Shown piece after piece: positions 6,898 through 45,269 of a DNA stretch of 64,000 nucleotides. The DNA is from a virus. Taxonomy: Duplodnaviria; Heunggongvirae; Uroviricota; Caudoviricetes. Position 1 is the first letter of the stretch, and every line of letters starts with the position of its first letter. The position numbers and the translations under genes are program-made. The notes below the pieces were generated by a model. That model had not been told where the DNA came from. It did not search any database and saw only the letters and a list, made by a program, of their open reading frames with translations. The DNA is taken from positions 82,576 to 146,575 of IMG/VR virus record IMGVR_UViG_3300003332_000015. One strand, 5' to 3'.

Positions 6898-7099
6898 TTG
6901 TGTACTAATAGTTAAAGAGAGTTGCTTAAAAGACGTTTTTGACGAGCTACAAGAGCAAATAGTCGAGCATGGTCTACTAGTAAGAATCATGGAAGAAAGT
7001 GAATTTAATAGTATGATGAACATATTAAAAGAAGATGAATATAAGGAAGAAAATGATGGGCAAAAACTTCTCTATGGCAAACAAAGGTCAAAGGAATAA
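6890..7099 (+). CDS. small hypothetical protein
   Basis: 69-aa ORF overlapping neighbours; weak. Confidence 0.25.
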   Translation: MSSCVLIVKESCLKDVFDELQEQIVEHGLLVRIMEESEFNSMMNILKEDEYKEENDGQKLLYGKQRSKE

Positions 7100-7640
7100 A
7101 TCAGATTTTTACCAAACTCCCTATAGCTTAACTAGGGAATTATTAAATCATGAATTGTTTGATTTTAATTTATCTGTATTAGAACCAGCTTGTGGACAAG
7201 ATGCTATAGTAAAAGTATTAAATGAAAGATTTAATATAAATTGTGTAGTTAAAGGGGATATACAAAAAGGTGTAGATTTTCTTAAATTTGATGGTATAAC
7301 TTTTCCTTATTTAATAACAAATCCTCCTTTTTCTTTAGCTTATGAATTTATTGTAAAAGCAAAAGAAGTTACTGAAGATAAAATAGCGATGGTATTACCT
7401 CTAAATTATTTACATGGTCAAAAAAGATATGAAACATTGTGGAAGGATAAAGAATTCCCATTAAAAAAAGTTTATGTATTTAGTCGATATCCTATGTTAA
7501 CAGATAAAGTTAGGGAAGATGGACTGTTTAATACTGGTATGATGGTGTATATGTGGGCAGTCTGGGAAAGAAGTTATACTGGATTACCTTATATAGATTG
7601 GATTGATATTAATAAATATATAATTAAAAAGAAAAAATAA
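7053..7640 (+). CDS. N6-adenine DNA methyltransferase
   Basis: LITNPPF catalytic motif (NPPF/DPPY class); start moved to the ATG after AAGGAAG. Confidence 0.6.
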   Translation: MMGKNFSMANKGQRNKSDFYQTPYSLTRELLNHELFDFNLSVLEPACGQDAIVKVLNERFNINCVVKGDIQKGVDFLKFDGITFPYLITNPPFSLAYEFIVKAKEVTEDKIAMVLPLNYLHGQKRYETLWKDKEFPLKKVYVFSRYPMLTDKVREDGLFNTGMMVYMWAVWERSYTGLPYIDWIDINKYIIKKKK

Positions 7641-12429: not shown

Positions 12430-12435
12430 ATTTTA

Positions 12436-12541
12436 GCAGGTTAGTGTAAAGGTAACACGGGAGTCTCATTAATATTATATGGTGAGTAGTATTAATAAGC
12501 TCCTGCCGAAAGGCTTCAAGGTTCGAGTCCTTGGCCTGCTA
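12436..12541 (+). tRNA. type-II (long variable arm) tRNA-like gene with a ~27-nt insertion or extension in the anticodon loop
   Basis: Acceptor gcaggtt/ggcctgc, T-arm caagg-TTCGAGT-ccttg, variable-arm hairpin gccGAAAggc, anticodon stem ggagt/gctcc enclosing a 34-nt loop. Confidence 0.55.
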
Positions 12542-12797
12542 AAGACTCTTGCAGGATAGACTTAGGTTGTGATAAGCTTTTAGGAGTGTAAGCAATAAGT
12601 CCTAATTGTAACTACTGTTCAAGATCTTAATATGCACCCTCCCAGTGCTATCTATTAAGATAGTCTAGAAGAGAGGTAGGTGGATGTCCCAACAAAGTTT
12701 CAATCCACCAAAACCCGAAAGCTACGACAGGGTATAAAAAGTGTGAAAGAGATTAGCATATGACAATGATCTTTAGTAGTTTGACGTAGCACCACAT
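12542..12797 (+). other. 256-nt non-coding segment between two insertion-bearing tRNAs
   Basis: No ORF; several hairpins (ggtggat...atccacc). Contains GTAAGCAATAAGTCCTAATTG, resembling the start box of the 13.9-kb repeat family. Confidence 0.3.
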
Positions 12798-12913
12798 TGG
12801 GAAGTAGCTCAGTGGTAGAGCAGCGGAATAGTTTTACTTTTCGCTTATAGCATAAAAAGTTCCTAACACTTATTAGGATCCGCAGGTCGTTGGTTCGAAT
12901 CCAACTTTCCCAA
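12798..12913 (+). tRNA. type-I tRNA gene interrupted by a 44-nt insertion in the anticodon loop (identity undetermined)
   Basis: Canonical acceptor (tgggaag/tttccca), D-arm tagctcagtggtagagc, anticodon stem gcgga/tccgc, T-arm gttgg-TTCGAAT-ccaac. The loop is 51 nt and contains ACTTTTCGCTT-AT-AGCATAAAAAGTTCCTAA. Confidence 0.65.
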
Positions 12914-13008
12914 AGAGGTATTTATTACATGCCTGTAAAATTTGTTTAACGTAAACAAAAGTAATTATTAAGGTGAAAGTGTCACCGAACACAAGTAGCC
13001 TTTTATAT

Positions 13009-13083: not shown

Positions 13084-13281
13084 TTTTTAAATTACCTAAG
13101 TAAGTGTTGAGGTGTGTTATGACAAGCACTTACCCATTTATCTTGAGTACCTAAGTGGGATAATAAAGGTAATAATAATAAGAGTTATGGCTGAAGAATT
13201 ACCATTTTTGGATATTGTGTAAGAGGTTTTACCCAGCATTTTTGTTCCAAAAGATAACAATAATAGTTATCAATTCTTATT

Positions 13282-13371
13282 TGGGGGAGTAGCTCAGCGG
13301 GTAGAGTAGCTCTTGTAAGTCATGAAATTTTTGTGATGGAGTTGGTCGGTAGTTCAAATCTATCCTTCCCC
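13282..13371 (+). tRNA. type-I tRNA gene with a ~19-nt insertion in the anticodon loop
   Basis: Acceptor gggggag/cttcccc, D-arm tagctcagcgggtagagt, T-arm ggtag-TTCAAAT-ctatc. Loop ttgtaag...ttgtgat carries canonical heptamers at both ends (GUA at 5', GUG at 3'). Confidence 0.6.
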
Positions 13372-13373
13372 AC

Positions 13374-13849: not shown

Positions 13850-13898
13850 ATTTTTTATTTAACAAACTGTAATAATTTATTATTATATTAATGTAAGT
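13850..13898 (+). promoter_or_regulatory. phage promoter motif (full consensus TTATTATTATATTAATGTAAGT)
   Basis: Its +1 region runs directly into repeat unit 1 of the array. Confidence 0.55.
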
Positions 13899-14306
13899 AA
13901 GCAAAGGAAGTTCCTAATAATATTCAATTGGTGGAAAAACTTACTTCCCGCTTACATAATTTATTTAGTGTAAGGAAGCATAGAAGGTTCCTAAACAAAG
14001 AATTTTAATCTAAACTACCTTCCGCTTCGCTTATTATATTGTTTATTAATTGGGCATAAAGGGTTCCTATAAAAAAAATACGGAAAACATTTGATTTACC
14101 CTTCGCCCTTATTTTGTTTATTAAGGCATTGAAAGTTCCTAAATAACCTGACTTAAAATCAGGCTCAGCCGAAAGGCTAAGCTATTTACTTTCCGCCTTT
14201 ATTATATTATATAAAATGGAGCATAGGAAGTTCCTATTAAACAATCCAATCGGGAAGTAACCCTAGTGGTGAAAACCCCGATTATCAGTGTATTACTTCC
14301 CGTTTC
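13897..14306 (+). repeat. tandem array of five structured-RNA-like units
   Basis: Units at ~13897-13955, 13974-14030, 14052-14108, 14123-14199 and 14218-14306. Each has 5' stemA-N3/4-stemB-GTTCCTA, a variable core, then 3' stemB'-(C)G-stemA'. Stems covary between units (gtaagc/gcttac, gaagc/gcttc, gggc/gccc, aaggc/gcctt, ggagc/gtttc with G·U pairs). AT-rich promoter-like linkers separate units. Confidence 0.7.
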
Positions 14307-14326: not shown

Positions 14327-16258
14327 ATGATATCTACATTAAGACTATTCAATGGTGTAATTGTTGACGACAAAACAACTAAAGGTCGAAATGATTATGT
14401 TGAAACTGAATTTCAAAAAGAAACTATGAAGAAAGGGTATATTATAGATGAAAAAATCTATAGTACTATGTCTTTCACCGATATTGATCGACTTCATAAT
14501 GTTATTGAAACAGAAGTATTAACTTCTTATGAAAATTGGAATAATGCTTTTTATAAATCTTGGAGTAAATTAGAAACACTTTCTGATCTTGAATTACGTG
14601 TTGATCAGTTACTACATTACTTTACTACATACGGTTTTGAAGCTCTTGGAATAAATAATTCTTTTGTTTATATACCAGAAGGTACAATTGATCTTCCTGA
14701 ACTTGATAAAGATCTTTCTTTCCTTTATATAAAAGCATTAAGCTGGGAAGAAGTAAAAGGTAGACTTGACAGTCTTATTGGTTCCGGTGTTGCTATGTCT
14801 GAACAAACTCAGTTAGACATTATGGAAGTTTATGAAGAGATTGGTTTTGATGCTTCTATTTTAGAAGTTTGTAAAAATAAAGAATTAAAAACTCGTTTTT
14901 ATGAGAAGTATGACTTAGTACCAAAAAATGCAACAGAGTTTTTAAGATATGTAATTATGAAGTCAACAGGAAATTCTCTTGTAATAAAAGATAAGGCAAC
15001 AATCGAGTCTATCAAAATTGGTGGTGGTAAAAAAGAAGTATTAGACACTTTTACTAAGTATGAAAACAGCTATGGTCTAACAGAACTTGCTTCCTCTTTT
15101 TATAGATATAAACCTTTATGGTTAGCTTTTAAAAGTTACACAGGTTTAAGTCCTATGATAAATAAAATTAGAAGATTAGCAGTTAATTACCATAAACCAA
15201 TGAAGGCTGATTTACTTAATGATTTAACAGGAATGTTAAATAGAAAAGAAAATATAAGTTATCCTGAATTAAATAGGGCTCTTGACAAAGCAAATAGTTT
15301 TAGAAAAATAAGATTACTATATGCTTTACAAAATAGAAAGAGTAAAAATACTGAAGTTGTTTATAGAATAAGAAACGGTAAGTCTTATGCAACAAATAGA
15401 GTTATAAATTCTAATCTTTTAGGTGTTGCTACTGTACGTAAGATTGTATACTCTTCTTTAGTTAAAGACTTAAAAGAAAAAGTGGAGAATAAACTTGTTT
15501 ATTTATCACCTAATATTAATTATGCTCTTCCTGCAACTGAAAAACAATTTGTAGGTAATTTTCCTACAGGAACATCTGTAGCAATAGATAAAGATAAAGA
15601 TGTAATCATGGGAGTACACTGGACTAATCAACAACAGAAAAGAGTTGATCTTGATTTATCACTTATTGATATTTCAGGTAACAAGTATGGTTGGGATGGA
15701 TCTTATAGAAATAGTAATAGATCTGTAATGTTTTCAGGAGATTTTACAAATGCACCATTACCAAAAGGAGCTACAGAATTATATTACTTTAAAGGTATAC
15801 AGGATGGAAGTTACTTAGTTAATATCAATTATTATAATAGTTTATATAGTGGTGATGGAGAAGATGTTCCTTTTGATATTGTAGTAGGTGGAAGTGTTGC
15901 TAATAAATCAAATAGAGGATTTATGATTAGTCCTAATGAAATAGTAGCACAAGTTCCTTCATTTATGGGGAACGACCAACAAGTAATTGGTCTTGTTATA
16001 ATTAAAGAAGGACAAGGAACCTTTTACTTTGCTGAAGCAAAAGTTGGTGTAGGACGTACTTCAAGAGGAACTGATACTGCAATGATACATCAAAAGTTCT
16101 TAGTTAATACATTGGAAGATACTATTGACTTTGAAAAGTTATTACTGGATGCAGGAGCTCTTACTACACGAGGTAAAGAGGATAATCCTCAGGATATAGA
16201 TTTTGATTTTTCAGTTGAGTCTATATCAAAAGACTCTATTTTAGAACTTTTTTATTAA
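14327..16258 (+). CDS. large hypothetical protein (~643 aa)
   Basis: Long ORF; ATG at 14327 six nt after AAGGAG. The track ORF begins upstream at a GTG that overlaps repeat unit 5. Confidence 0.6.
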   Translation: MISTLRLFNGVIVDDKTTKGRNDYVETEFQKETMKKGYIIDEKIYSTMSFTDIDRLHNVIETEVLTSYENWNNAFYKSWSKLETLSDLELRVDQLLHYFTTYGFEALGINNSFVYIPEGTIDLPELDKDLSFLYIKALSWEEVKGRLDSLIGSGVAMSEQTQLDIMEVYEEIGFDASILEVCKNKELKTRFYEKYDLVPKNATEFLRYVIMKSTGNSLVIKDKATIESIKIGGGKKEVLDTFTKYENSYGLTELASSFYRYKPLWLAFKSYTGLSPMINKIRRLAVNYHKPMKADLLNDLTGMLNRKENISYPELNRALDKANSFRKIRLLYALQNRKSKNTEVVYRIRNGKSYATNRVINSNLLGVATVRKIVYSSLVKDLKEKVENKLVYLSPNINYALPATEKQFVGNFPTGTSVAIDKDKDVIMGVHWTNQQQKRVDLDLSLIDISGNKYGWDGSYRNSNRSVMFSGDFTNAPLPKGATELYYFKGIQDGSYLVNINYYNSLYSGDGEDVPFDIVVGGSVANKSNRGFMISPNEIVAQVPSFMGNDQQVIGLVIIKEGQGTFYFAEAKVGVGRTSRGTDTAMIHQKFLVNTLEDTIDFEKLLLDAGALTTRGKEDNPQDIDFDFSVESISKDSILELFY

Positions 16259-16614: not shown

Positions 16615-17274
16615 ATGAGTATAAAAATTAAAGAAGAATGGAAGAATCAAGAAGGATTATATATTTGTCCTGTATGTCAAAAAAGATATACTAAAAATGG
16701 AATAAGTACACACATTTGGAGAATGCACGGTGAAGGTAACAATCATAAACCTTTTAAAAATAAAATAACATGGAATAAAGGTTTAACTAAAGAAACCGAT
16801 GATCGTGTTAAACAACAAGGTATTAATTTTAGTAAAGCTTTTAAAGAAGGGAAAATAAAATCTAGAAAAGGAACAAAATTATCTAAAGAAATTTGTAAAA
16901 AAATTTCAATAGGTATGCAAAAAGTAGTTAGAGATAATCCAGAATCTTATAATTCTAAGAATGTATGTGGTAGAGTAAAAAATATAGATTATAATGGATT
17001 TACTCTTAAAGGTAATTGGGAACTTTTAGTTGCTAAGTTTTTAGATTCGAAAGGGATTAAATGGACTAATATAGTTGAACCTTTTACTTATATTTGGAAA
17101 GGTAGTAAACATTTATATTTTCCTGATTTTTATCTTTTAGAAAGAGATGAATATATTGAAGTTAAAGGATATGAAAGGCCTAAAGATGTAGAAAAATGGA
17201 AGGTAGTAAGTAATTTAAGAATTATTAAACTTAAAGAAATTAATAACATTAAAAACAATTTATATTGTATATAA
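16615..17274 (+). CDS. PD-(D/E)xK-nuclease-like protein with N-terminal C2H2-type zinc finger (possible homing endonuclease)
   Basis: CPVCQ...HIWRMH zinc finger; FPDFYLLERDEYIEVKG fits a PD-(D/E)xK motif. Confidence 0.45.
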   Translation: MSIKIKEEWKNQEGLYICPVCQKRYTKNGISTHIWRMHGEGNNHKPFKNKITWNKGLTKETDDRVKQQGINFSKAFKEGKIKSRKGTKLSKEICKKISIGMQKVVRDNPESYNSKNVCGRVKNIDYNGFTLKGNWELLVAKFLDSKGIKWTNIVEPFTYIWKGSKHLYFPDFYLLERDEYIEVKGYERPKDVEKWKVVSNLRIIKLKEINNIKNNLYCI

Positions 17275-21347: not shown

Positions 21348-21356
21348 TATTATTTT

Positions 21357-21477
21357 GGCCGAATGGCGGAACTGGTAGACGCGCCGGACTTAGAGCAGCT
21401 TCGGATTGGAAACAATGGAGCTCCTCTAAAATCCGGTTCCTGTAATGGGAGTGAGGGTTCGAGTCCCTCTTCGGCTA
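21357..21477 (+). tRNA. type-II tRNA-Leu-like gene with a ~36-nt insertion in the anticodon loop
   Basis: Acceptor ggccgaa/ttcggct, Leu-type D-arm ggaactggtagac, stem ccgga/tccgg around a 43-nt loop beginning cuUAGag (UAG at canonical position, A37), long variable arm, T-arm gaggg-TTCGAGT-ccctc. Confidence 0.6.
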
Positions 21478-21484
21478 ATATTAT

Positions 21485-21633
21485 GGCAGAATAAGCCTTA
21501 TTTTTGAGATGTTATAACGAAAAGTACTTAGTAGTTATAGTGTGTTAATTATACTGTACTGATATTGGAAAGATGATTTATTTGTTGCAACATTTAGAAA
21601 GTCTTAATGGAGGTTCGATTCCTTCTTCTGTCC
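21485..21633 (+). ncRNA. tRNA-like element: 7-bp acceptor-like stem + canonical T-arm with ~100-nt internal insertion
   Basis: ggcagaa...ttctgtc pairing; T-arm ggagg-TTCGATT-ccttc; flanks taagcctta and cttaatgg collinear with the 19326-19378 element. Confidence 0.4.
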
Positions 21634-22881: not shown

Positions 22882-22954
22882 GCCCTTATCGTATAATGGT
22901 TAGTACAACACCCTCTAAAAGTGTTTGGTTTGGGTTCGACTCCCAATAAGCGGC
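22882..22954 (+). tRNA. tRNA-like gene with anticodon CUA (putative amber suppressor); acceptor stem imperfect
   Basis: D-arm gtataatggttagtac, stem acacc/agtgt (C31·A39), loop cuCUAaa, T-arm ttggg-TTCGACT-cccaa. Acceptor gccctta vs taagcgg pairs at 5 of 7. Confidence 0.45.
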
Positions 22955-31020: not shown

Positions 31021-31053
31021 AACCGTCTTTCTTTATGTTAGACGGTTTTTTTA
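31021..31053 (+). terminator. rho-independent terminator after the transporter gene
   Basis: aaccgtct...agacggtt stem followed by T7. Confidence 0.7.
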
Positions 31054-31059
31054 TGATTT

Positions 31060-31113
31060 TTTTTAAATTCTTTTTAAAAAGTTTTAAAAAAATATTATTA
31101 TATAAGTGTAAGG
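31060..31113 (+). promoter_or_regulatory. phage promoter motif upstream of pnk
   Basis: tttaaaaagttttaaaaaaatattattatataagtgtaagg. Confidence 0.55.
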
Positions 31114-31121
31114 AGATTGGA

Positions 31122-32003
31122 ATGCAAACAGTTTATATAATGAAAGGACTTCCTGCATCAGGTAAGTCAACAAAAGCAAAACAGATGGTAGAAATGTCTA
31201 GTGGTAATCTTAAAAGAATTAATAAAGATGATTTAAGAGCTATGATGGATACTAAGTGGAGTAGAGAAAGAGAGAAACTTGTAATTGCTACAAGAGATTC
31301 TATTATTAGAACTTGGCTTTTTGAAGGGTTTGATGTAGTTGTTGATGATACAAATCTGGCAAAAAAACATATTACAAGAATTGAATCAATTGTGAACGAA
31401 TATAATAAAAAGTATAACAAAGAAGCAATAACAAAAATTATTGATTTCTCTTATACTGTAAGTGTTCACGAGTGTTTACGTCGAGATCGTAAAAGAGAAA
31501 ATCCTGTTGGTGATGATACTATATGGAGAATGTATAGTCAATTTATTGAATGGACAAAACCTGAAGTAAAAAAAGATAATAGTAAAGAAGATGTTTATCT
31601 TTGTGACTTAGATGGAACTATTGCTTTACATAATGGTAGAAATCCTTACTTATATGAAGAGTGTATACATGACTTACCTAATATGCCGGTTGTTAATGTT
31701 ATAAGGGCACTTATTAAATCTGATTTTAAAGTTGTATTTGTTACAGCAAGAGAAGATATTGGTAACTCAAAATCATTAACAATACAGTGGATTGAAGAAT
31801 ATATTGGTTTAAAAGATCCTATAGTTATTACAAGGGAATTAGGTGATAACAGAAATGATGGTATTACTAAAAGAGAAATGTATAACAAATATATTTTTCC
31901 TAAGTATAATGTTATTGGTGTATTTGATGATCGTAAAAGAGTTATTGATATGTGGCGTGATATGGACATCATGGTTTTTGATGTTGCAGGTCATACGTTT
32001 TAA
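31122..32003 (+). CDS. pnk: polynucleotide 5'-kinase/3'-phosphatase (T4 Pnk-like)
   Basis: N-terminal P-loop GLPASGKST plus C-terminal HAD motif LCDLDGTIA; start at ATG 31122 after AGGAG. Confidence 0.85.
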   Translation: MQTVYIMKGLPASGKSTKAKQMVEMSSGNLKRINKDDLRAMMDTKWSREREKLVIATRDSIIRTWLFEGFDVVVDDTNLAKKHITRIESIVNEYNKKYNKEAITKIIDFSYTVSVHECLRRDRKRENPVGDDTIWRMYSQFIEWTKPEVKKDNSKEDVYLCDLDGTIALHNGRNPYLYEECIHDLPNMPVVNVIRALIKSDFKVVFVTAREDIGNSKSLTIQWIEEYIGLKDPIVITRELGDNRNDGITKREMYNKYIFPKYNVIGVFDDRKRVIDMWRDMDIMVFDVAGHTF

Positions 32004-33547: not shown

Positions 33548-34681
33548 ATGCTTAAGCTACAAGAGTTTATTAAAGAACATCCTCTTAATTTTCAAGAGTT
33601 TCTTTCAGAGAAACCTTATTGTATTAAGATGCAGGAAGACAAACATTTTATGTTATTTAAATATTCCCAAATCGATAGTGATTTCACTAATCAGCTTGTA
33701 AGAGAATGTCGAGGTATTATACTTGATAAAAATGATTGGTCTATTGCTTGTCACCCCTTTCACAAGTTTGGTAATTATGGTGAATCGTATGTTCCTGAAA
33801 TTGATTGGGATTCAGCTAAAGTACAGGAAAAACTTGATGGTTCTTTAATTAAATGTTGGTATAATAAATATGAAGATAATTTTCAATGGTCCACTAATGG
33901 AACTATTTATGCAAGCTCAGCAAATTTACAAGTACCATTAAATGGATTTGACAATTTTGATCAACTCATAAGTTATACATTAATGTCTATAGGGAAGACA
34001 ACAGTTACATCTATGATGATGAAAGAGTATACTTATTTATTTGAACTATGTACTCCTCATAATAGAGTAGTAGTACCACATAAAGATTTTGAATTATATC
34101 ATTTATCAACTAAACATAATGAAACAGGAAAAGAAATAATTCAAATATTAATGATGCCTGTCCCTAAAGTTTACTCTTTATTAACATTGGAAGAATGTAT
34201 TGAAACAGCAAATGAGTTACCTTTTAATGAAGAAGGTTATGTAGTAGTTGATGATAAATTAAATAGAGTTAAAATTAAGTCACCAGCTTATTTAGCTATA
34301 CACCATTTAAAAGGTGAAGGTATTGTTTCTGAAAAAAGAGCATTAGATTTAATAAGAATGAACGAGCATAAAGAATTTCTTTACTACTATGATGAGTATA
34401 CAGATTTTTTTGATGATTTAGAAAAAAGATATAATCAATTTATGGAAATTATAGACTATGATTTAGATGAAGCAAAGAGTTTTATACATACAAAAAGAAA
34501 AGTATTTGCACATTGGGCAAATACTTATTCTGTATTACCTTCTGCATGTTTTCAGTTTTATGATGGTAAAATTAAAACAGCAAAAGAGGCTATAACTAAT
34601 ATGACTAGTGAAAGGATGCTACCTCATTTAAAGAATGTACTCATTTTAAATATGGAAGGTGAGATTGGTAAAGGGTTATAA
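33548..34681 (+). CDS. rnl: RNA ligase (T4 Rnl1-like)
   Basis: Motif I EKLDGSLIK (KxDGS) at ~residue 95; co-located with pnk. Confidence 0.6.
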   Translation: MLKLQEFIKEHPLNFQEFLSEKPYCIKMQEDKHFMLFKYSQIDSDFTNQLVRECRGIILDKNDWSIACHPFHKFGNYGESYVPEIDWDSAKVQEKLDGSLIKCWYNKYEDNFQWSTNGTIYASSANLQVPLNGFDNFDQLISYTLMSIGKTTVTSMMMKEYTYLFELCTPHNRVVVPHKDFELYHLSTKHNETGKEIIQILMMPVPKVYSLLTLEECIETANELPFNEEGYVVVDDKLNRVKIKSPAYLAIHHLKGEGIVSEKRALDLIRMNEHKEFLYYYDEYTDFFDDLEKRYNQFMEIIDYDLDEAKSFIHTKRKVFAHWANTYSVLPSACFQFYDGKIKTAKEAITNMTSERMLPHLKNVLILNMEGEIGKGL

Positions 34682-43892: not shown

Positions 43893-44140
43893 TGACAGAA
43901 ATAACTTGGGAAGAATTTAGGAAATCAGGATTACTTTTATTAGTAAATCAATTCTTACATATTTTTGGATTAGCGATTGTAGTTTATATGGAGTATGACA
44001 AAGTTATTCGTACATACCCCGCTAGAGTGAAATTCAGAGGATTTGCTGGGAAATCTTTAGATAAGGCTTATATAAATATTTCTAAATATATGAAAGAACA
44101 TGGTAAAGAACTGTATGATGAGGTGATAGAAAATGAGTGA
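43889..44140 (+). CDS. small membrane protein
   Basis: 83 aa with a hydrophobic segment. Confidence 0.35.
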   Translation: MMTEITWEEFRKSGLLLLVNQFLHIFGLAIVVYMEYDKVIRTYPARVKFRGFAGKSLDKAYINISKYMKEHGKELYDEVIENE

Positions 44141-45269
44141 TAGAAAATTAGCAAGCATTGAAAAAATAATATCTTTAGAACCAATTAAAGGTAAAGATAG
44201 GATTGAATTGGCAACAATATTAGGTTGGCACTGTATAGTAGGTAAAGAGGAATTTAAAGTAGGAGATTATGTTGTTTATTGTCAATATGACACCTTACTT
44301 CCAATCAAACCTGAGTTTGAGTTTCTTAGAAATAGGTGTTATAGTAAGAAATTTGATGGAATGAGAATTCGGAATATGAAAATGGCTGGAGTTTATTCGG
44401 AAGGAATTGTATTTAAAGTTAAAGATATTAAAGATTTAGATGCTTTAAGCGAAAAACAGTTATATGAAGGAAAAGATGTATCTGAAATCATAGGTGTACA
44501 AAAATATGACATCGAATCTCTAGAGGAAGTGGAAAAAGCTAAGGTAAGTAGGAATCCTATAATTAAGTATCTAATGAGATATAAATGGTTTAGAAAATGG
44601 ATAGGTAATAGAAAACCAAAATATGGATATCCTGAAGGTGTTCATAAAGCTAATGAAACAAATATTCAAGTAATATTTAATCGTTTAAAGGATAAAGATT
44701 TACTTTATTATAAATCCGAAAAACTTGAAGGTCAAGCTTGTACTTATCTTGTAACGAATAAAGGTAGATTTATGGTGTTTTCCCATAATGTAGGACTACC
44801 CAAATCAAATAATAATTGGTGGAGAATAGCTGAAAAGTTCAATATTGAAAGAAAAATTAAAAACTTTATGAAACTATATGATGTAAATGAAATGTATATA
44901 GGTGGTGAGATTATAGGACCAGGAATTCAAAGAAATATTTATGGTTTAAATGACTTAGATATGTATATTTATAATATTATATCTTTAGATAATAATAGAG
45001 TAGAAAATAAAATATTTGGTTTAAATGATATGAGATTATTCTGTAATGTTACAGGATTAAAAATGGTTCCTGTACTTGAAGAAAATGTTAAATTACTTGA
45101 ATCATCAGACGCTATACTAGAGGATTGTGAAGGTGAATCTATTTTTAATTCTTCTGTTAAAGGTTTAAGAGAAGGAATTATCTGGCGATCAAATTGTGGT
45201 AAATATGGTTTTAAAGCAAAATCTAAAAAATATCAAGATTTGTGGAATAAAAAGGAGAAAACAGAATGA
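44133..45269 (+). CDS. ATP-dependent polynucleotide ligase-like protein (KxDGxR motif)
   Basis: SKKFDGMRIR (KxDGxR) and SEGIVFK (EGxVxK-like); family assignment uncertain. Confidence 0.4.
   Translation: MSDRKLASIEKIISLEPIKGKDRIELATILGWHCIVGKEEFKVGDYVVYCQYDTLLPIKPEFEFLRNRCYSKKFDGMRIRNMKMAGVYSEGIVFKVKDIKDLDALSEKQLYEGKDVSEIIGVQKYDIESLEEVEKAKVSRNPIIKYLMRYKWFRKWIGNRKPKYGYPEGVHKANETNIQVIFNRLKDKDLLYYKSEKLEGQACTYLVTNKGRFMVFSHNVGLPKSNNNWWRIAEKFNIERKIKNFMKLYDVNEMYIGGEIIGPGIQRNIYGLNDLDMYIYNIISLDNNRVENKIFGLNDMRLFCNVTGLKMVPVLEENVKLLESSDAILEDCEGESIFNSSVKGLREGIIWRSNCGKYGFKAKSKKYQDLWNKKEKTE

What the first reader, a model, noticed from the sequence alone, without database searches (positions are those of the whole stretch)
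13897..14306. Tandem array of five covarying stem-framed RNA-like units with a conserved GTTCCTA box
Five consecutive 57–89-nt units share one architecture: 5' stemA, a 3–4 nt gap, stemB, GTTCCTA, a 30–60 nt variable core, then stemB', (C)G and stemA'. The stem sequences differ between units but always stay complementary: A = gtaagc/gcttac, gaagc/gcttc, gggc/gccc, aaggc/gcctt, ggagc/gtttc; B = ggaag/cttcc, gaagg/ccttc, aaggg/ccctt, gaaag/ctttc, ggaag/cttcc. The last unit uses G·U pairs, which only work in RNA. That covariation argues for a folded RNA rather than a DNA binding site or a CRISPR array. Units are separated by AT-rich linkers resembling degenerate copies of the genome-wide promoter motif, and unit 1 begins exactly at the +1 of a full-consensus promoter. 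The core of unit 4 is a complete tRNA anticodon stem-loop (cctga-cuUAAaa-tcagg, U33/A37) plus a type-II variable arm ctcaGCCGAAAGGCtaag, identical to the variable arm of the tRNA at 12436. No ORF lies inside the array. I know of no described element family with this layout, and cannot check databases from here. Candidates are a family of small RNAs (possibly tRNA-derived or armless tRNAs), substrates of an RNA-processing system, or a mobile mini-element.
Basis: seen in the sequence. Interest (0 to 1): 0.9.

Follow-up and report, generated by a model that had tools for sequence, protein, structure and literature searches.

The report
Tandem tRNA-mimicking handle RNAs, Y-RNA-like
The five repeats are real genes for small folded RNAs of a widespread, apparently undescribed family that sits in front of one conserved unknown protein in phages and bacteria, carries pieces of tRNA as cargo, and looks like a second, independent version of the Ro60/Y-RNA RNA-repair particle.

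Summary
Window 13897-14306 holds five tandem units with one architecture: helix A, AUA-type bulge, 5-bp helix B, invariant UUCC, UA, variable core, UA, B', bulged C, A'. A covariance model finds exactly these five in the 64 kb. The same module occurs 211 times in 80 viral loci and 122 times in 80 independent genome loci. Every hit is on the strand of, and almost always just upstream of, homologues of the 643-aa gene at 14327-16258. Both helices covary strongly. Cores are cargo: mini anticodon-like hairpins, T-arm/acceptor minihelices, or whole circularly permuted tRNA-like domains with capped acceptor stems. The permuted domains hit Rfam YrlA (Y RNA-like) below threshold. The same handle is inserted in the anticodon loop of a tRNA body at 12797-12914. 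The partner protein is alpha-solenoid plus TerD-like, not Ro60. In Flavobacteriia chromosomes the cassette is handle RNAs + protein + RtcB, like Salmonella rsr-yrlBA-rtcBA. Best reading: Y-RNA-like handle-and-cargo RNAs for a non-Ro protein, tied to tRNA repair. Protein binding and function are inferred, not shown. The main rival is a splicing motif for permuted or interrupted tRNAs.

The parts
13859..13886 (+). promoter-like site (TTAACA-16-TATTAT) about 10 nt upstream of unit 1
   Evidence: 10 of 12 matches. Such sites are not enriched over shuffles in this AT-rich stretch, so this is a candidate only. Similar -10-like hexamers precede the first unit in L009, L007 and L005.
13897..13955 (+). 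unit 1: A 13897-13902, AAA bulge, B 13906-13910, TTCCTAA 13911-13917, core with CAATTGGTGG ('TTGG class'), TTA, B' 13944-13948, C 13949, A' 13950-13955
   Evidence: 53.4 bits, E 6e-14; MFE gives A and B, z -3.2. An orthologous unit occurs in L007 1131-1186.
13975..14028 (+). unit 2: A GAAGC, ATA, B GAAGG 13983-13987, TTCCTAA, core with mini hairpin AGA-AUUUUAA-UCU (anticodon-loop-like), CTA, B' 14018-14022, C, A' 14024-14028
   Evidence: (55.6 bits, E 1e-14). Same B as L009 unit 1.
14052..14108 (+). unit 3: A GGGC, ATA, B AAGGG 14059-14063, TTCCTAT, A-rich core, TTA, B' 14099-14103, C, A' 14105-14108
   Evidence: (49.4 bits, E 1e-12; not in the training set). Same B as L009 unit 2.
14123..14199 (+). 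unit 4: A AAGGC, ATT, B GAAAG 14131-14135, TTCCTAA, helix C UAAAU/AUUUA, cargo = 5-bp stem + CUUAAAA loop (tRNA-Leu(UAA)-like anticodon arm) + GCC-GAAA-GGC hairpin, TTA, B' 14189-14193, C, A' 14195-14199
   Evidence: 40.4 bits, E 9e-10; not in the training set; three-way junction in the MFE, z -3.1
14218..14306 (+). unit 5: A GGAGC (G.U pairs with GUUUC), ATA, B GGAAG 14226-14230, TTCCTAT, 55-nt cargo hairpin, TTA, B' 14296-14300, C, A' 14302-14306. It ends 20 nt before the start codon, with AAGGAG in between.
   Evidence: 42.2 bits, E 2e-10; not in the training set; the MFE prefers the alternative pairing 14251-14260 with 14293-14302.
14327..16258 (+). gene for the 643-aa protein genetically linked to the RNA family: all-alpha N-terminal part (about 1-340) plus TerD-like beta sandwich (about 390-575). 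Proposed protein partner of the handle.
12797..12914 (+). tRNA-shaped gene whose anticodon loop is replaced by the same handle in closed topology (12834-12866: TTA CTTTT C GCT-TAT-AGC ATA AAAAG TTCCTAA). TCCTAA can pair with TTAGGA next to the 3' anticodon-stem strand.
   Evidence: Rfam tRNA 56.2 bits with 51 nt between the anticodon-stem strands.. The same chimera occurs in L022, L030, L036, L055, L070, L074, L084, L170 and L172.

Best explanation
The array is five tandem genes for small non-coding RNAs of one modular family. Each RNA closes its 5' and 3' ends into a conserved 'handle'. The handle is helix A (inner base pairs GGC/GCC), a 3-nt AUA-type bulge opposite a single C, a 5-bp helix B ending in G-C, an invariant unpaired UUCC, and a short UA/UA helix. 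The handle holds out a variable 'cargo'. Across the family the cargo is frequently a piece of tRNA: a mini anticodon-like hairpin, a T-arm plus capped acceptor-like hairpin, or a whole circularly permuted tRNA-like domain. In an alternative wiring the handle is a hairpin planted in the anticodon loop of a tRNA body (window 12797-12914). I infer that the handle is the binding site for the alpha-solenoid + TerD-like protein encoded directly downstream. On that reading the RNAs and protein form a particle that works like bacterial Ro60(Rsr)/Y RNA: a protein ring or solenoid carrying tRNA-mimicking RNAs that recruit, occupy or decoy tRNA-recognising enzymes during RNA damage and repair. In this phage that would serve the fight over tRNAs, given its roughly 26 tRNA genes, Pnkp, Rnl1-type ligase and a second ligase. 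Different stem sequences in neighbouring units keep tandem copies from mispairing. The gene-proximal unit sits a median of 27 nt from the start codon, so protein binding there may also feed back on the protein's own translation. Shown: the structure, its covariation, strand specificity, family-wide linkage to the gene, the tRNA-like cargo, and co-location with RtcB. Inferred: transcription as discrete RNAs, protein binding, and the repair or decoy role.
For: Structure and covariation:
- 182 of 227 sites picked by the 5' sequence motif alone have a fully complementary B' flanked by TA and CG. Shuffled B gives 31.4, and 0 of 27 sites on the opposite strand qualify.
- 9 of 10 helix pairs change on both sides. 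The covariation score is 0.70, against 0.17 or less for slid partners and 0 of 500 shuffles.

Specificity:
- The model R1 finds only the five units in the window.

Linkage to the gene:
- 211 hits in 80 viral loci and 122 hits in 80 independent genome loci are all on the gene strand.
- 93% lie within 700 nt upstream of the gene.
- Linked loci include cultured phages S-CRM01, S-CBWM1 and Phass-1.

tRNA-like cargo:
- 17 of 39 long cores are permuted tRNA-like domains.
- They match Rfam YrlA over the full model at 36-48 bits, E 1e-7 to 4e-4.
- Their acceptor stems are capped by UUCG, UGCG or GAAA loops, as in YrlA.
- Anticodon-loop-like mini hairpins occur in 35 of 137 small cores, against 6.8 +/- 2.7 in shuffles.

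Operon analogy:
- Winogradskyella, Chryseobacterium, Aquimarina and Algibacter chromosomes carry tRNA-with-handle + units + protein + RtcB. In Chryseobacterium the cassette sits among cobalamin genes.
- This is the layout of rsr-yrlBA-rtcBA (PMC4201824, PMC7790460).
- Rhodococcus phage Weasels2 has RtcB 3 kb away, and L005 has an RNA ligase adjacent.
- The window encodes Pnkp and two RNA ligases.

Units away from the 5' UTR:
- Some units lie just downstream of the gene or among tRNA genes: S-CBWM1 L011 2449-2503, S-CRM01 L010 7829-7880, Phass-1 6988-7452. This fits trans-acting RNAs.
Against: - There is no expression data, so discrete transcripts and their ends are unknown.
- Protein binding rests on gene adjacency only.
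- The handle does not align with the YrlA stems or with the GNCGAA motif.
- The five window units themselves carry no full tRNA-like domain.
- Adjacency to RNA ligase genes is not general: 4 of 92 loci for Rnl and 5 of 174 for RtcB, although the flanks searched were only 2.5-3 kb.
- The tight spacing of the last unit to the start codon fits a purely cis-regulatory leader just as well.
Confidence: 0.55

Rival explanations
1. The module is a splicing or processing motif, a bacterial and phage analogue of the archaeal bulge-helix-bulge. An endonuclease, possibly the downstream protein, cuts at the base of the handle. The phage Pnkp and RNA ligase, or RtcB, then join the ends. This would turn permuted tRNA genes (through circular intermediates) and the interrupted tRNA 12797-12914 into working tRNAs. 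Units with small cores would yield tiny circles or be spent cassettes.
For: The handle flanks permuted tRNA-like sequences and interrupts tRNA bodies exactly at the anticodon loop. Most bodies keep N-U after the 5' stem strand and NNN-R-A before the 3' strand, as if the loop were opened between positions 33 and 34. That is the site sealed by T4 Rnl1, from my own knowledge. Heal-and-seal enzymes are present: Pnkp, an Rnl1-type ligase and a second ligase in the window, and RtcB in bacterial cassettes. Three other tRNA genes in the window carry 19-36-nt inserts, and tRNA-Leu(UAA) exists only in interrupted form.
Against: No single cut rule restores a 7-nt loop, because distances from helix B differ between loci. 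Some bodies carry a complete loop on the 5' side and others do not. Near-identical tRNA bodies would obtain different anticodons (UAG, UCG, UUG, ACG). The trinucleotide that follows is a constant GGA that can pair with UCC of the box. Acceptor stems of the permuted bodies are closed by stable UUCG, UGCG or GAAA caps, in two cases with 1-2 extra base pairs (L020, S-CRM01 unit 2). That is a poor substrate for RNase P and Z (inference). About 90% of units have cores too small to be tRNAs. The motif is not a BHB: it has a 5-bp helix with 3-nt/1-nt and 4-nt asymmetric loops. No nuclease fold was recognised in the protein.
Confidence: 0.17
2. The units are cis-acting leader elements of the downstream mRNA. 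They would be repeated operator sites for autoregulation by the encoded protein, or structures that set mRNA stability, processing or translation, with no trans function.
For: 93% of units lie within 700 nt upstream of the gene on the same strand. The last unit ends a median of 27 nt from the start codon. No terminator was found between the array and the gene.
Against: Units also occur just after the gene or kilobases away among tRNA genes. Copy number varies from 1 to 8. Cargo includes elaborate tRNA-like domains, and the same handle sits inside separate tRNA-shaped genes. None of this is expected of a simple operator.
Confidence: 0.15
3. The units act at the DNA level, as hairpin recombination sites or as a miniature mobile element that spreads into tRNA genes. 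The downstream protein would be its recombinase.
For: Units are tandem and vary in copy number. One copy lies inside tRNA genes. There are inverted-repeat ends.
Against: Strand asymmetry is absolute: 333 of 333 model hits are on the gene strand. G.U pairs are tolerated on that strand: about 22 G.U cells against 3 non-pairs in the alignment, though the scanner was lenient to G.U. The asymmetric bulges and single-stranded box are conserved. No recombinase or nuclease fold was found. The order of units with the same B sequence is conserved between the window and L009.
Confidence: 0.03

Closest known systems
Bacterial and phage Y RNAs, especially YrlA/YrlB with Ro60 (Rsr) in the rsr-yrlBA-rtcBA RNA repair operon (Rfam RF02553; Chen et al. 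2014, PMC4201824; Hughes et al. 2020, PMC7790460)
   Same: Both are small RNAs whose 5' and 3' ends pair into a bulged stem with a short conserved pyrimidine-rich motif on the 5' strand. The vertebrate Ro site is GGUCCGA and the motif here is GUUCCUA. The distal module is a tRNA-like domain in the same permuted order (T arm, capped acceptor-like hairpin, D arm). One to several RNA genes lie next to the gene of a large alpha-solenoid-type protein. Both are found in bacteria and phages and are co-located with RtcB. Cargo-bearing relatives hit the YrlA model full length at E 1e-7 to 4e-4.
   Different: The partner protein has no TROVE or vWA domain and carries a TerD-like beta sandwich. The handle stems and box do not align with YrlA, and scores stay below the gathering threshold. 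Most units, including all five here, have minimal cargo rather than a full tRNA-like domain. Arrays reach 8 copies. A closed-handle version sits in the anticodon loop of tRNA bodies with open acceptor ends.
Circularly permuted and intron-containing tRNA genes processed through the bulge-helix-bulge motif (Cyanidioschyzon merolae, some green algae, Thermofilum; from my own knowledge of Soma et al. 2007 and Chan et al. 2011)
   Same: The gene order is 3' half then 5' half. The transcript ends are brought together by a helix next to the anticodon-loop position. The same motif serves as an 'intron' in unpermuted genes.
   Different: There is no BHB geometry and no EndA-type endonuclease. Acceptor ends are capped by tetraloops. 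No consistent splice rule emerges, and orthologous bodies would get different anticodons. Permuted tRNA genes are not known from bacteria or phages.
T4-type tRNA repair (Pnkp + Rnl1 against the PrrC anticodon nuclease; from my own knowledge) and phage tRNA arrays as counter-defence
   Same: The genomic setting is the same: a large tRNA cluster, Pnkp and an Rnl1-type ligase in one phage. The cargo mimics anticodon arms.
   Different: T4 has no known handle RNAs or TerD-solenoid protein. A decoy or scaffold role for the units is only inferred.

Membership tests
YrlA / bacterial Y RNA (RF02553) | Reaches the Rfam gathering score (69 bits) | tested here: not met
   No YrlA hit on the five window units even at E <= 10. 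Cargo-bearing relatives score 36-48 bits.
YrlA / bacterial Y RNA (RF02553) | Encoded next to a Ro60/Rsr (TROVE + vWA) gene | tested here: not met
YrlA / bacterial Y RNA (RF02553) | 5' and 3' ends form a stem carrying the GNCGAAN0-1G (or GGUCCGA) Ro-binding motif | tested here: not met
   The terminal stem is present and covaries, but the conserved motif is G-UUCC-UA. The YrlA outer stems do not align.
YrlA / bacterial Y RNA (RF02553) | Distal tRNA-like domain (T arm, closed acceptor-like hairpin, D arm) | tested here: inconclusive
   Present in 17 of 39 long-core units of relatives. Absent from the five window units: U4 has only an anticodon arm plus a hairpin. The window's tRNA-with-handle (12797-12914) supplies a tRNA body in another topology.
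YrlA / bacterial Y RNA (RF02553) | Association with RtcB-type RNA repair genes | tested here: met
   RtcB is adjacent in four Flavobacteriia chromosomes and one viral contig and nearby in Weasels2. In the window, Pnkp and two ligases lie 17-30 kb away.
BHB-dependent tRNA introns / permuted tRNA genes | Bulge-helix-bulge: two 3-nt bulges on opposite strands separated by a 4-bp helix | tested here: not met
   The central helix is 5 bp. It is flanked by a 3-nt bulge opposite one C on one side and a 4-nt UUCC on the other.
BHB-dependent tRNA introns / permuted tRNA genes | Removal of the motif by one rule restores a 7-nt anticodon loop and a decoding tRNA | tested here: not met
   Cut distances differ between loci. 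Orthologous bodies would get UAG, UCG, UUG or ACG. Acceptor ends are capped.
BHB-dependent tRNA introns / permuted tRNA genes | Spliced or circular RNA products exist | not testable with these tools
   Needs RNA-seq or RT-PCR across the junction.
tRNA (RF00005), including armless tRNAs | Cloverleaf or reduced tRNA with a free acceptor end and a 7-nt anticodon loop | tested here: not met
   There are no tRNA hits on the units. A' is followed by AT-rich linker with no discriminator or CCA pattern.
CRISPR array | Near-identical direct repeats with unique spacers and cas genes | tested here: not met
   The repeated part differs between units by compensatory changes. There is no CRISPR repeat hit on the array, and no cas gene appeared among the ORFs scanned.

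The most novel reading that the evidence does not exclude
This may be a previously unrecognised ribonucleoprotein system, found in hundreds of phages and in bacterial chromosomes. A TerD-domain alpha-solenoid protein would be armed with arrays of exchangeable 'handle-and-cargo' RNAs that display tRNA parts (anticodon arms, elbows, whole tRNA bodies). It would be a second, independently evolved Ro/Y-RNA-like machine that phages use in the tRNA-cleavage arms race. The alternative novel reading is the first protein-dependent tRNA splicing and permuted-tRNA pathway outside archaea and eukaryotes. Either would be new biology.
Probability: 0.6. Interest if true: 0.9.

Novelty: new variant of a known kind. 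Interest (0 to 1): 0.82.

Why it matters
If the reading holds, the Ro60/Y-RNA principle has arisen at least twice. That principle is a protein carrying small RNAs whose free end imitates tRNA, encoded beside an RNA ligase. Here it would use an unrelated protein and an unrelated RNA handle, and it would be common in phages that carry large tRNA sets. Several things would follow.

- A family of more than 1300 'hypothetical' phage and bacterial proteins would get a function.
- A new, strongly covarying RNA family could be added to the curated libraries.
- tRNA genes that annotation tools report as intron-containing or pseudo in these phages would be explained.
- There would be a concrete handle for studying how phages counter anticodon nucleases and other tRNA-targeting defences.
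- The modular handle could be useful as an RNA display scaffold.

Cultured systems exist for testing: cyanophages S-CRM01 and S-CBWM1, Winogradskyella marina, Chryseobacterium rhizosphaerae and Ktedonobacter racemifer.

Tried and rejected
1. **Close relatives among deposited phages.** Megablast of 6 kb found only a tRNA-Thr match.
2. **Curated families.** Rfam gave no relevant hit on the array at either the gathering or the permissive threshold. Pfam, PHROGs, NCBIfam and PDB sequence searches did not place the protein.
3. **UUCCUAA as an anticodon loop (CCU), making the units armless tRNAs.** Rejected: B' lies 30-65 nt away and the box is invariant while the cargo varies.
4. **B as decoy Shine-Dalgarno sites with UUCCU as an anti-SD mimic.** Rejected: B is not purine-only across the family (AGCAG, GGTAG, AGTGG), and some loci lack an SD.
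5. **Pairing of each B' with the next unit's B (intron-like units spanning linkers).** Rejected, because partners within a unit pair better.
6. **General UUCC:GGA pairing.** GGA is not significantly enriched in cores (52 against 43.6 +/- 4.9), so this pairing is limited to tRNA-type units.
7. **RNA ligase adjacency as a general rule.** The Rnl homologue is adjacent in one phage only. RtcB adjacency is confined to Flavobacteriia plus one contig.
8. **Position-specific promoter in the linkers.** None was found.
9. **MFE-based search for hairpins in small cores.** It was uninformative and was replaced by an explicit motif count.
10. **AFDB fold search.** The library was unavailable.
11. **Literature.** Seven full-text searches and the Y RNA paper gave no description of this RNA or protein. 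Burroughs and Aravind 2016 (NAR gkw722) is not held and could not be checked.
12. **FRT resemblance.** GAAGTTCCTATT resembles the yeast Flp FRT half-site (from memory). I regard this as coincidence, because the flanking helix covaries.
Full report
**What is in the window**

Positions 13897-14306 hold five head-to-tail units of 54-89 nt. Each reads 5' to 3' as follows:
- helix A, 4-6 bp here, always ending in C
- a 3-nt bulge (AAA, ATA or ATT)
- a 5-nt strand B ending in G
- TTCC, then TA plus one more base
- a variable core of 20-55 nt
- YTA, then B' starting with C
- a single C
- A' starting with G

It missed the conserved YTA before B', and it took the C as optional although all five units have it.

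The complete module occurs six times in the 64 kb. Five are the units. The sixth is a rearranged copy inside the tRNA gene at 12797-12914. The window has 28.9% G+C. It carries about 26 tRNA genes, including a CUA suppressor, plus RecA, ribonucleotide reductase and ThyX, so it is a large phage. The identical protein P0001 comes from a 146.6-kb contig.

**Is it more than chance?**

I built a covariance model (R1) from 83 short units, 81 of them from other loci, with helices A and B and the UA/UA pairs as structure.
- In the window it finds exactly the five units (40-56 bits, E 1e-14 to 9e-10) and nothing else on either strand up to E = 10. Units 3-5 were not in the training set.
- MFE folding of units 1-4 reproduces A and B with z-scores of -2.0 to -3.2. 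Unit 5 prefers a competing internal pairing.

**The family**

The ORF just downstream (14327-16258, 643 aa) has more than 1333 homologues and no Pfam or PHROG family. I fetched loci around its homologues, and the same module appeared upstream in nearly every one.
- The first ten loci had 1-5 units each.
- 80 IMG/VR loci gave 211 model hits at E <= 1e-3.
- 80 loci from the GTDB genome collection gave 122 hits at E <= 0.01. None of these was used to build the model.
- All 333 hits are on the strand of the gene.
- 93% of units lie within 700 nt upstream of it. The last unit ends a median of 27 nt from the start codon.

Cultured phages with the pair are cyanophages S-CRM01 (five units before g174) and S-CBWM1, and the gut phage Phass-1. 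In S-CRM01, S-CBWM1 and Rhodococcus phage Weasels2 the gene sits inside the big tRNA cluster.

**Covariation**

My structural scanner required pairing, so I also ran a test that picks sites by the 5' sequence motif alone (C-ANA-N5-TTCCT).
- 182 of 227 distinct sites on the gene strand have TA plus a fully complementary B' plus CG within 170 nt.
- Shuffled B gives 31.4, and 0 of 27 sites on the other strand qualify.

On the 83-sequence alignment, 9 of the 10 pairs of helices A and B show changes on both sides, in 256 cells. Fifty-six different B sequences are all compensated. The covariation score is 0.70, against 0.17 or less when partners are slid, and 0 of 500 shuffles reach it.

The invariant or near-invariant positions are all unpaired or helix-closing: GGC/GCC at the inner end of A, the A-N-A bulge, the G-C closing B, UUCC, UA...UA, and the bulged C. 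That is the signature of a protein-recognised RNA structure. Neighbouring units differ in their stems, which would also keep tandem copies from mispairing (inference).

**The cores are cargo, often tRNA parts**

Core length peaks at 20-22 nt and tails out to 130 nt.
- *Long cores.* Of 39 cores of 40 nt or more, 17 are circularly permuted tRNA-like domains. Their order is anticodon-stem 3' strand, variable region, T arm, acceptor 3' strand, a cap loop, acceptor 5' strand, D arm, anticodon-stem 5' strand. These units match Rfam YrlA ('Y RNA-like') over the whole model at 36-48 bits (E 1e-7 to 4e-4). That is below the 69-bit gathering score, and the score comes from the T-arm/hairpin/D-arm part. 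The acceptor stems are closed by UUCG, UGCG or GAAA-type caps. In L020 and S-CRM01 unit 2 one or two extra base pairs sit beneath the cap.
- *T-arm cores.* Other cores are a T arm plus a capped acceptor-like hairpin (S-CRM01 unit 5, L052, L053, L172 unit b).
- *Small cores.* 35 of 137 contain a stem of 3 bp or more with a 7-nt Y-U-NNN-R-N loop such as CUGUUAA, CUUGAAA or UUUGGAU. Shuffles give 6.8 +/- 2.7. TTGG is enriched 7.9-fold, giving D-loop-like AUUGG loops.
- *The window's units.* Unit 1 is TTGG class. Unit 2 has AGA-AUUUUAA-UCU. Unit 4 has a complete 5-bp anticodon arm (CUUAAAA) plus a GNRA hairpin on a three-way junction. Unit 5 has a long hairpin.

**The handle inside tRNA bodies**

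In tRNA 12797-12914 the 51 nt between the anticodon-stem strands are TTA-B'-C-A'-loop-A-ATA-B-TTCCTAA. This is the same handle with helix A closed by a triloop and the tRNA body standing where the cargo would be. The same chimera recurs next to the arrays in L022, L030, L036, L055, L070, L074 and L084, and in the Winogradskyella and Chryseobacterium chromosomes. It is therefore a conserved component of the system.

**The protein**

The AlphaFold model (pLDDT 86, pTM 0.83) has an all-alpha N-terminal half and a beta sandwich at about 390-575.
- BFVD shows the same two-domain architecture in uncharacterised proteins of Campylobacter virus IBB35 and Lactobacillus phage LpeD.

**Genomic company**

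The window encodes a T4-type Pnkp (31035-32003), an Rnl1-type ligase (33548-34681) and a DraRnl-type ligase (44133-45269).

In four Flavobacteriia isolate genomes the cassette is tRNA-with-handle + 2-5 units + protein + RtcB. In Chryseobacterium it lies beside ordinary cobalamin genes, so the system is not confined to phages. This is the layout of the Salmonella rsr-yrlB-yrlA-rtcB-rtcA operon. There a Ro60 orthologue, its Y RNAs (one with a tRNA-like domain) and RtcB are co-encoded (PMC4201824, PMC7790460).

**Interpretation**

The best-supported reading is that the units are handle-and-cargo small RNAs that work like Y RNAs. A terminal bulged stem is bound by the neighbouring protein, and a distal module imitates tRNA. 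The particle is tied to tRNA damage and repair.
- *Shown:* the structure, covariation, strand specificity, linkage to the gene, tRNA-like cargo, and the RtcB cassettes.
- *Inferred:* discrete transcripts, protein binding, and the scaffold or decoy role.

Membership in YrlA fails on three defining features: the score, the Ro60 partner and the binding motif. I therefore file the element as working like a Y RNA, not as one.

**The splicing rival**

The splicing rival is attractive. The handle flanks permuted tRNA sequences and opens anticodon loops near position 33/34, and heal-and-seal enzymes are present. Several observations count against it.
- No single cut rule restores a 7-nt loop.
- Near-identical tRNA bodies would acquire UAG, UCG, UUG or ACG. 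These are followed by a constant GGA that can pair with the box.
- The acceptor ends are capped.
- About 90% of units have no tRNA to make.

**The cis-leader and DNA-level rivals**

A purely cis-regulatory leader fits the tight spacing to the start codon. It does not fit units found downstream of the gene or among tRNA genes, nor the elaborate cargo. Feedback on translation may still be a side function of the last unit. DNA-level explanations are excluded in practice by the absolute strand bias and the asymmetric conserved loops.

**Novelty**

There is no Rfam family and no Pfam family. Seven full-text searches and the Y RNA paper gave no description of this RNA or protein. One relevant survey, Burroughs and Aravind 2016, could not be read. 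I rate the finding as a new variant of a known kind, the Ro/Y-RNA-type particle. There is a real chance that it is a categorically new system.

Noticed in passing
window 12434-12542, 13283-13373, 21356-21478: Three more tRNA genes carry 27-, 19- and 36-nt inserts in or beside the anticodon loop. These inserts are hairpins, not the handle. tRNA-Leu(UAA), the anticodon for the commonest Leu codon in a 29% G+C genome, exists only in this interrupted form. Inserts this short are far too small for group I introns and are unexplained.
   Followed up: partly
window 22882-22954: A tRNA with anticodon CUA (amber suppressor, called 'Pyl' by ARAGORN) sits in the tRNA cluster. The relative Phass-1 is classified in the 'code 15' phage clade. 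TAG recoding in this phage is therefore possible.
   Followed up: no
window 31035-32003, 33548-34681, 44133-45269: The window encodes a complete T4-style tRNA heal-and-seal set: Pnkp (kinase + HAD phosphatase), an Rnl1-type RNA ligase, and a second DraRnl/Rnl2-like ligase.
   Followed up: partly
window 14251-14260 and 14293-14302: Inside unit 5, CGGGAAGTAA is perfectly complementary to TTACTTCCCG (pre-B', B', C, G). The MFE fold therefore prefers this pairing over helix B. This could be an alternative conformation or a relic of duplication.
   Followed up: no
window 21612-21622: A T-arm-like GGTTCGATTCC lies in the 180-nt non-coding stretch after tRNA 21356-21478, without any called tRNA. It may be a tRNA fragment or another tRNA-like RNA.
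   Followed up: no
window 12543-12796 and 13084-13282: These are long non-coding gaps between tRNA genes with no ORF of note and no Rfam match beyond chance. They could hold further small RNAs.
   Followed up: no
window 16615-17274: An endonuclease-like ORF (PHROG 15137; weak Phage_endo_I match and zinc finger) lies between the 643-aa gene and the next tRNA block. S-CBWM1 also has endonuclease genes inside its tRNA cluster.
   Followed up: no
L172 2100-6362, L170 463-4102, L144, L165: Flavobacteriia isolate chromosomes carry the whole cassette (tRNA-with-handle, 2-5 units, protein, RtcB). In Chryseobacterium it lies beside cobalamin genes. Ktedonobacter racemifer has one unit and the gene next to a transposase.
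   Followed up: partly
L018 2556-2717, L026 2800-2966, L047 2807-2963: In three permuted tRNA-like cargos the acceptor cap is replaced by a conserved hairpin of about 45 nt (…GCTGTACGCGGTGCCCACCCCCTCGTGCAGC…). This is an extra domain of unknown role.
   Followed up: no
genome-collection loci L094-L110: Many of the best protein matches lie on contigs binned as Asgard (Promethearchaeota), DPANN archaea or Planctomycetota MAGs. These are probably phage contigs mis-binned into MAGs, but an archaeal-virus host range was not excluded.
   Followed up: no
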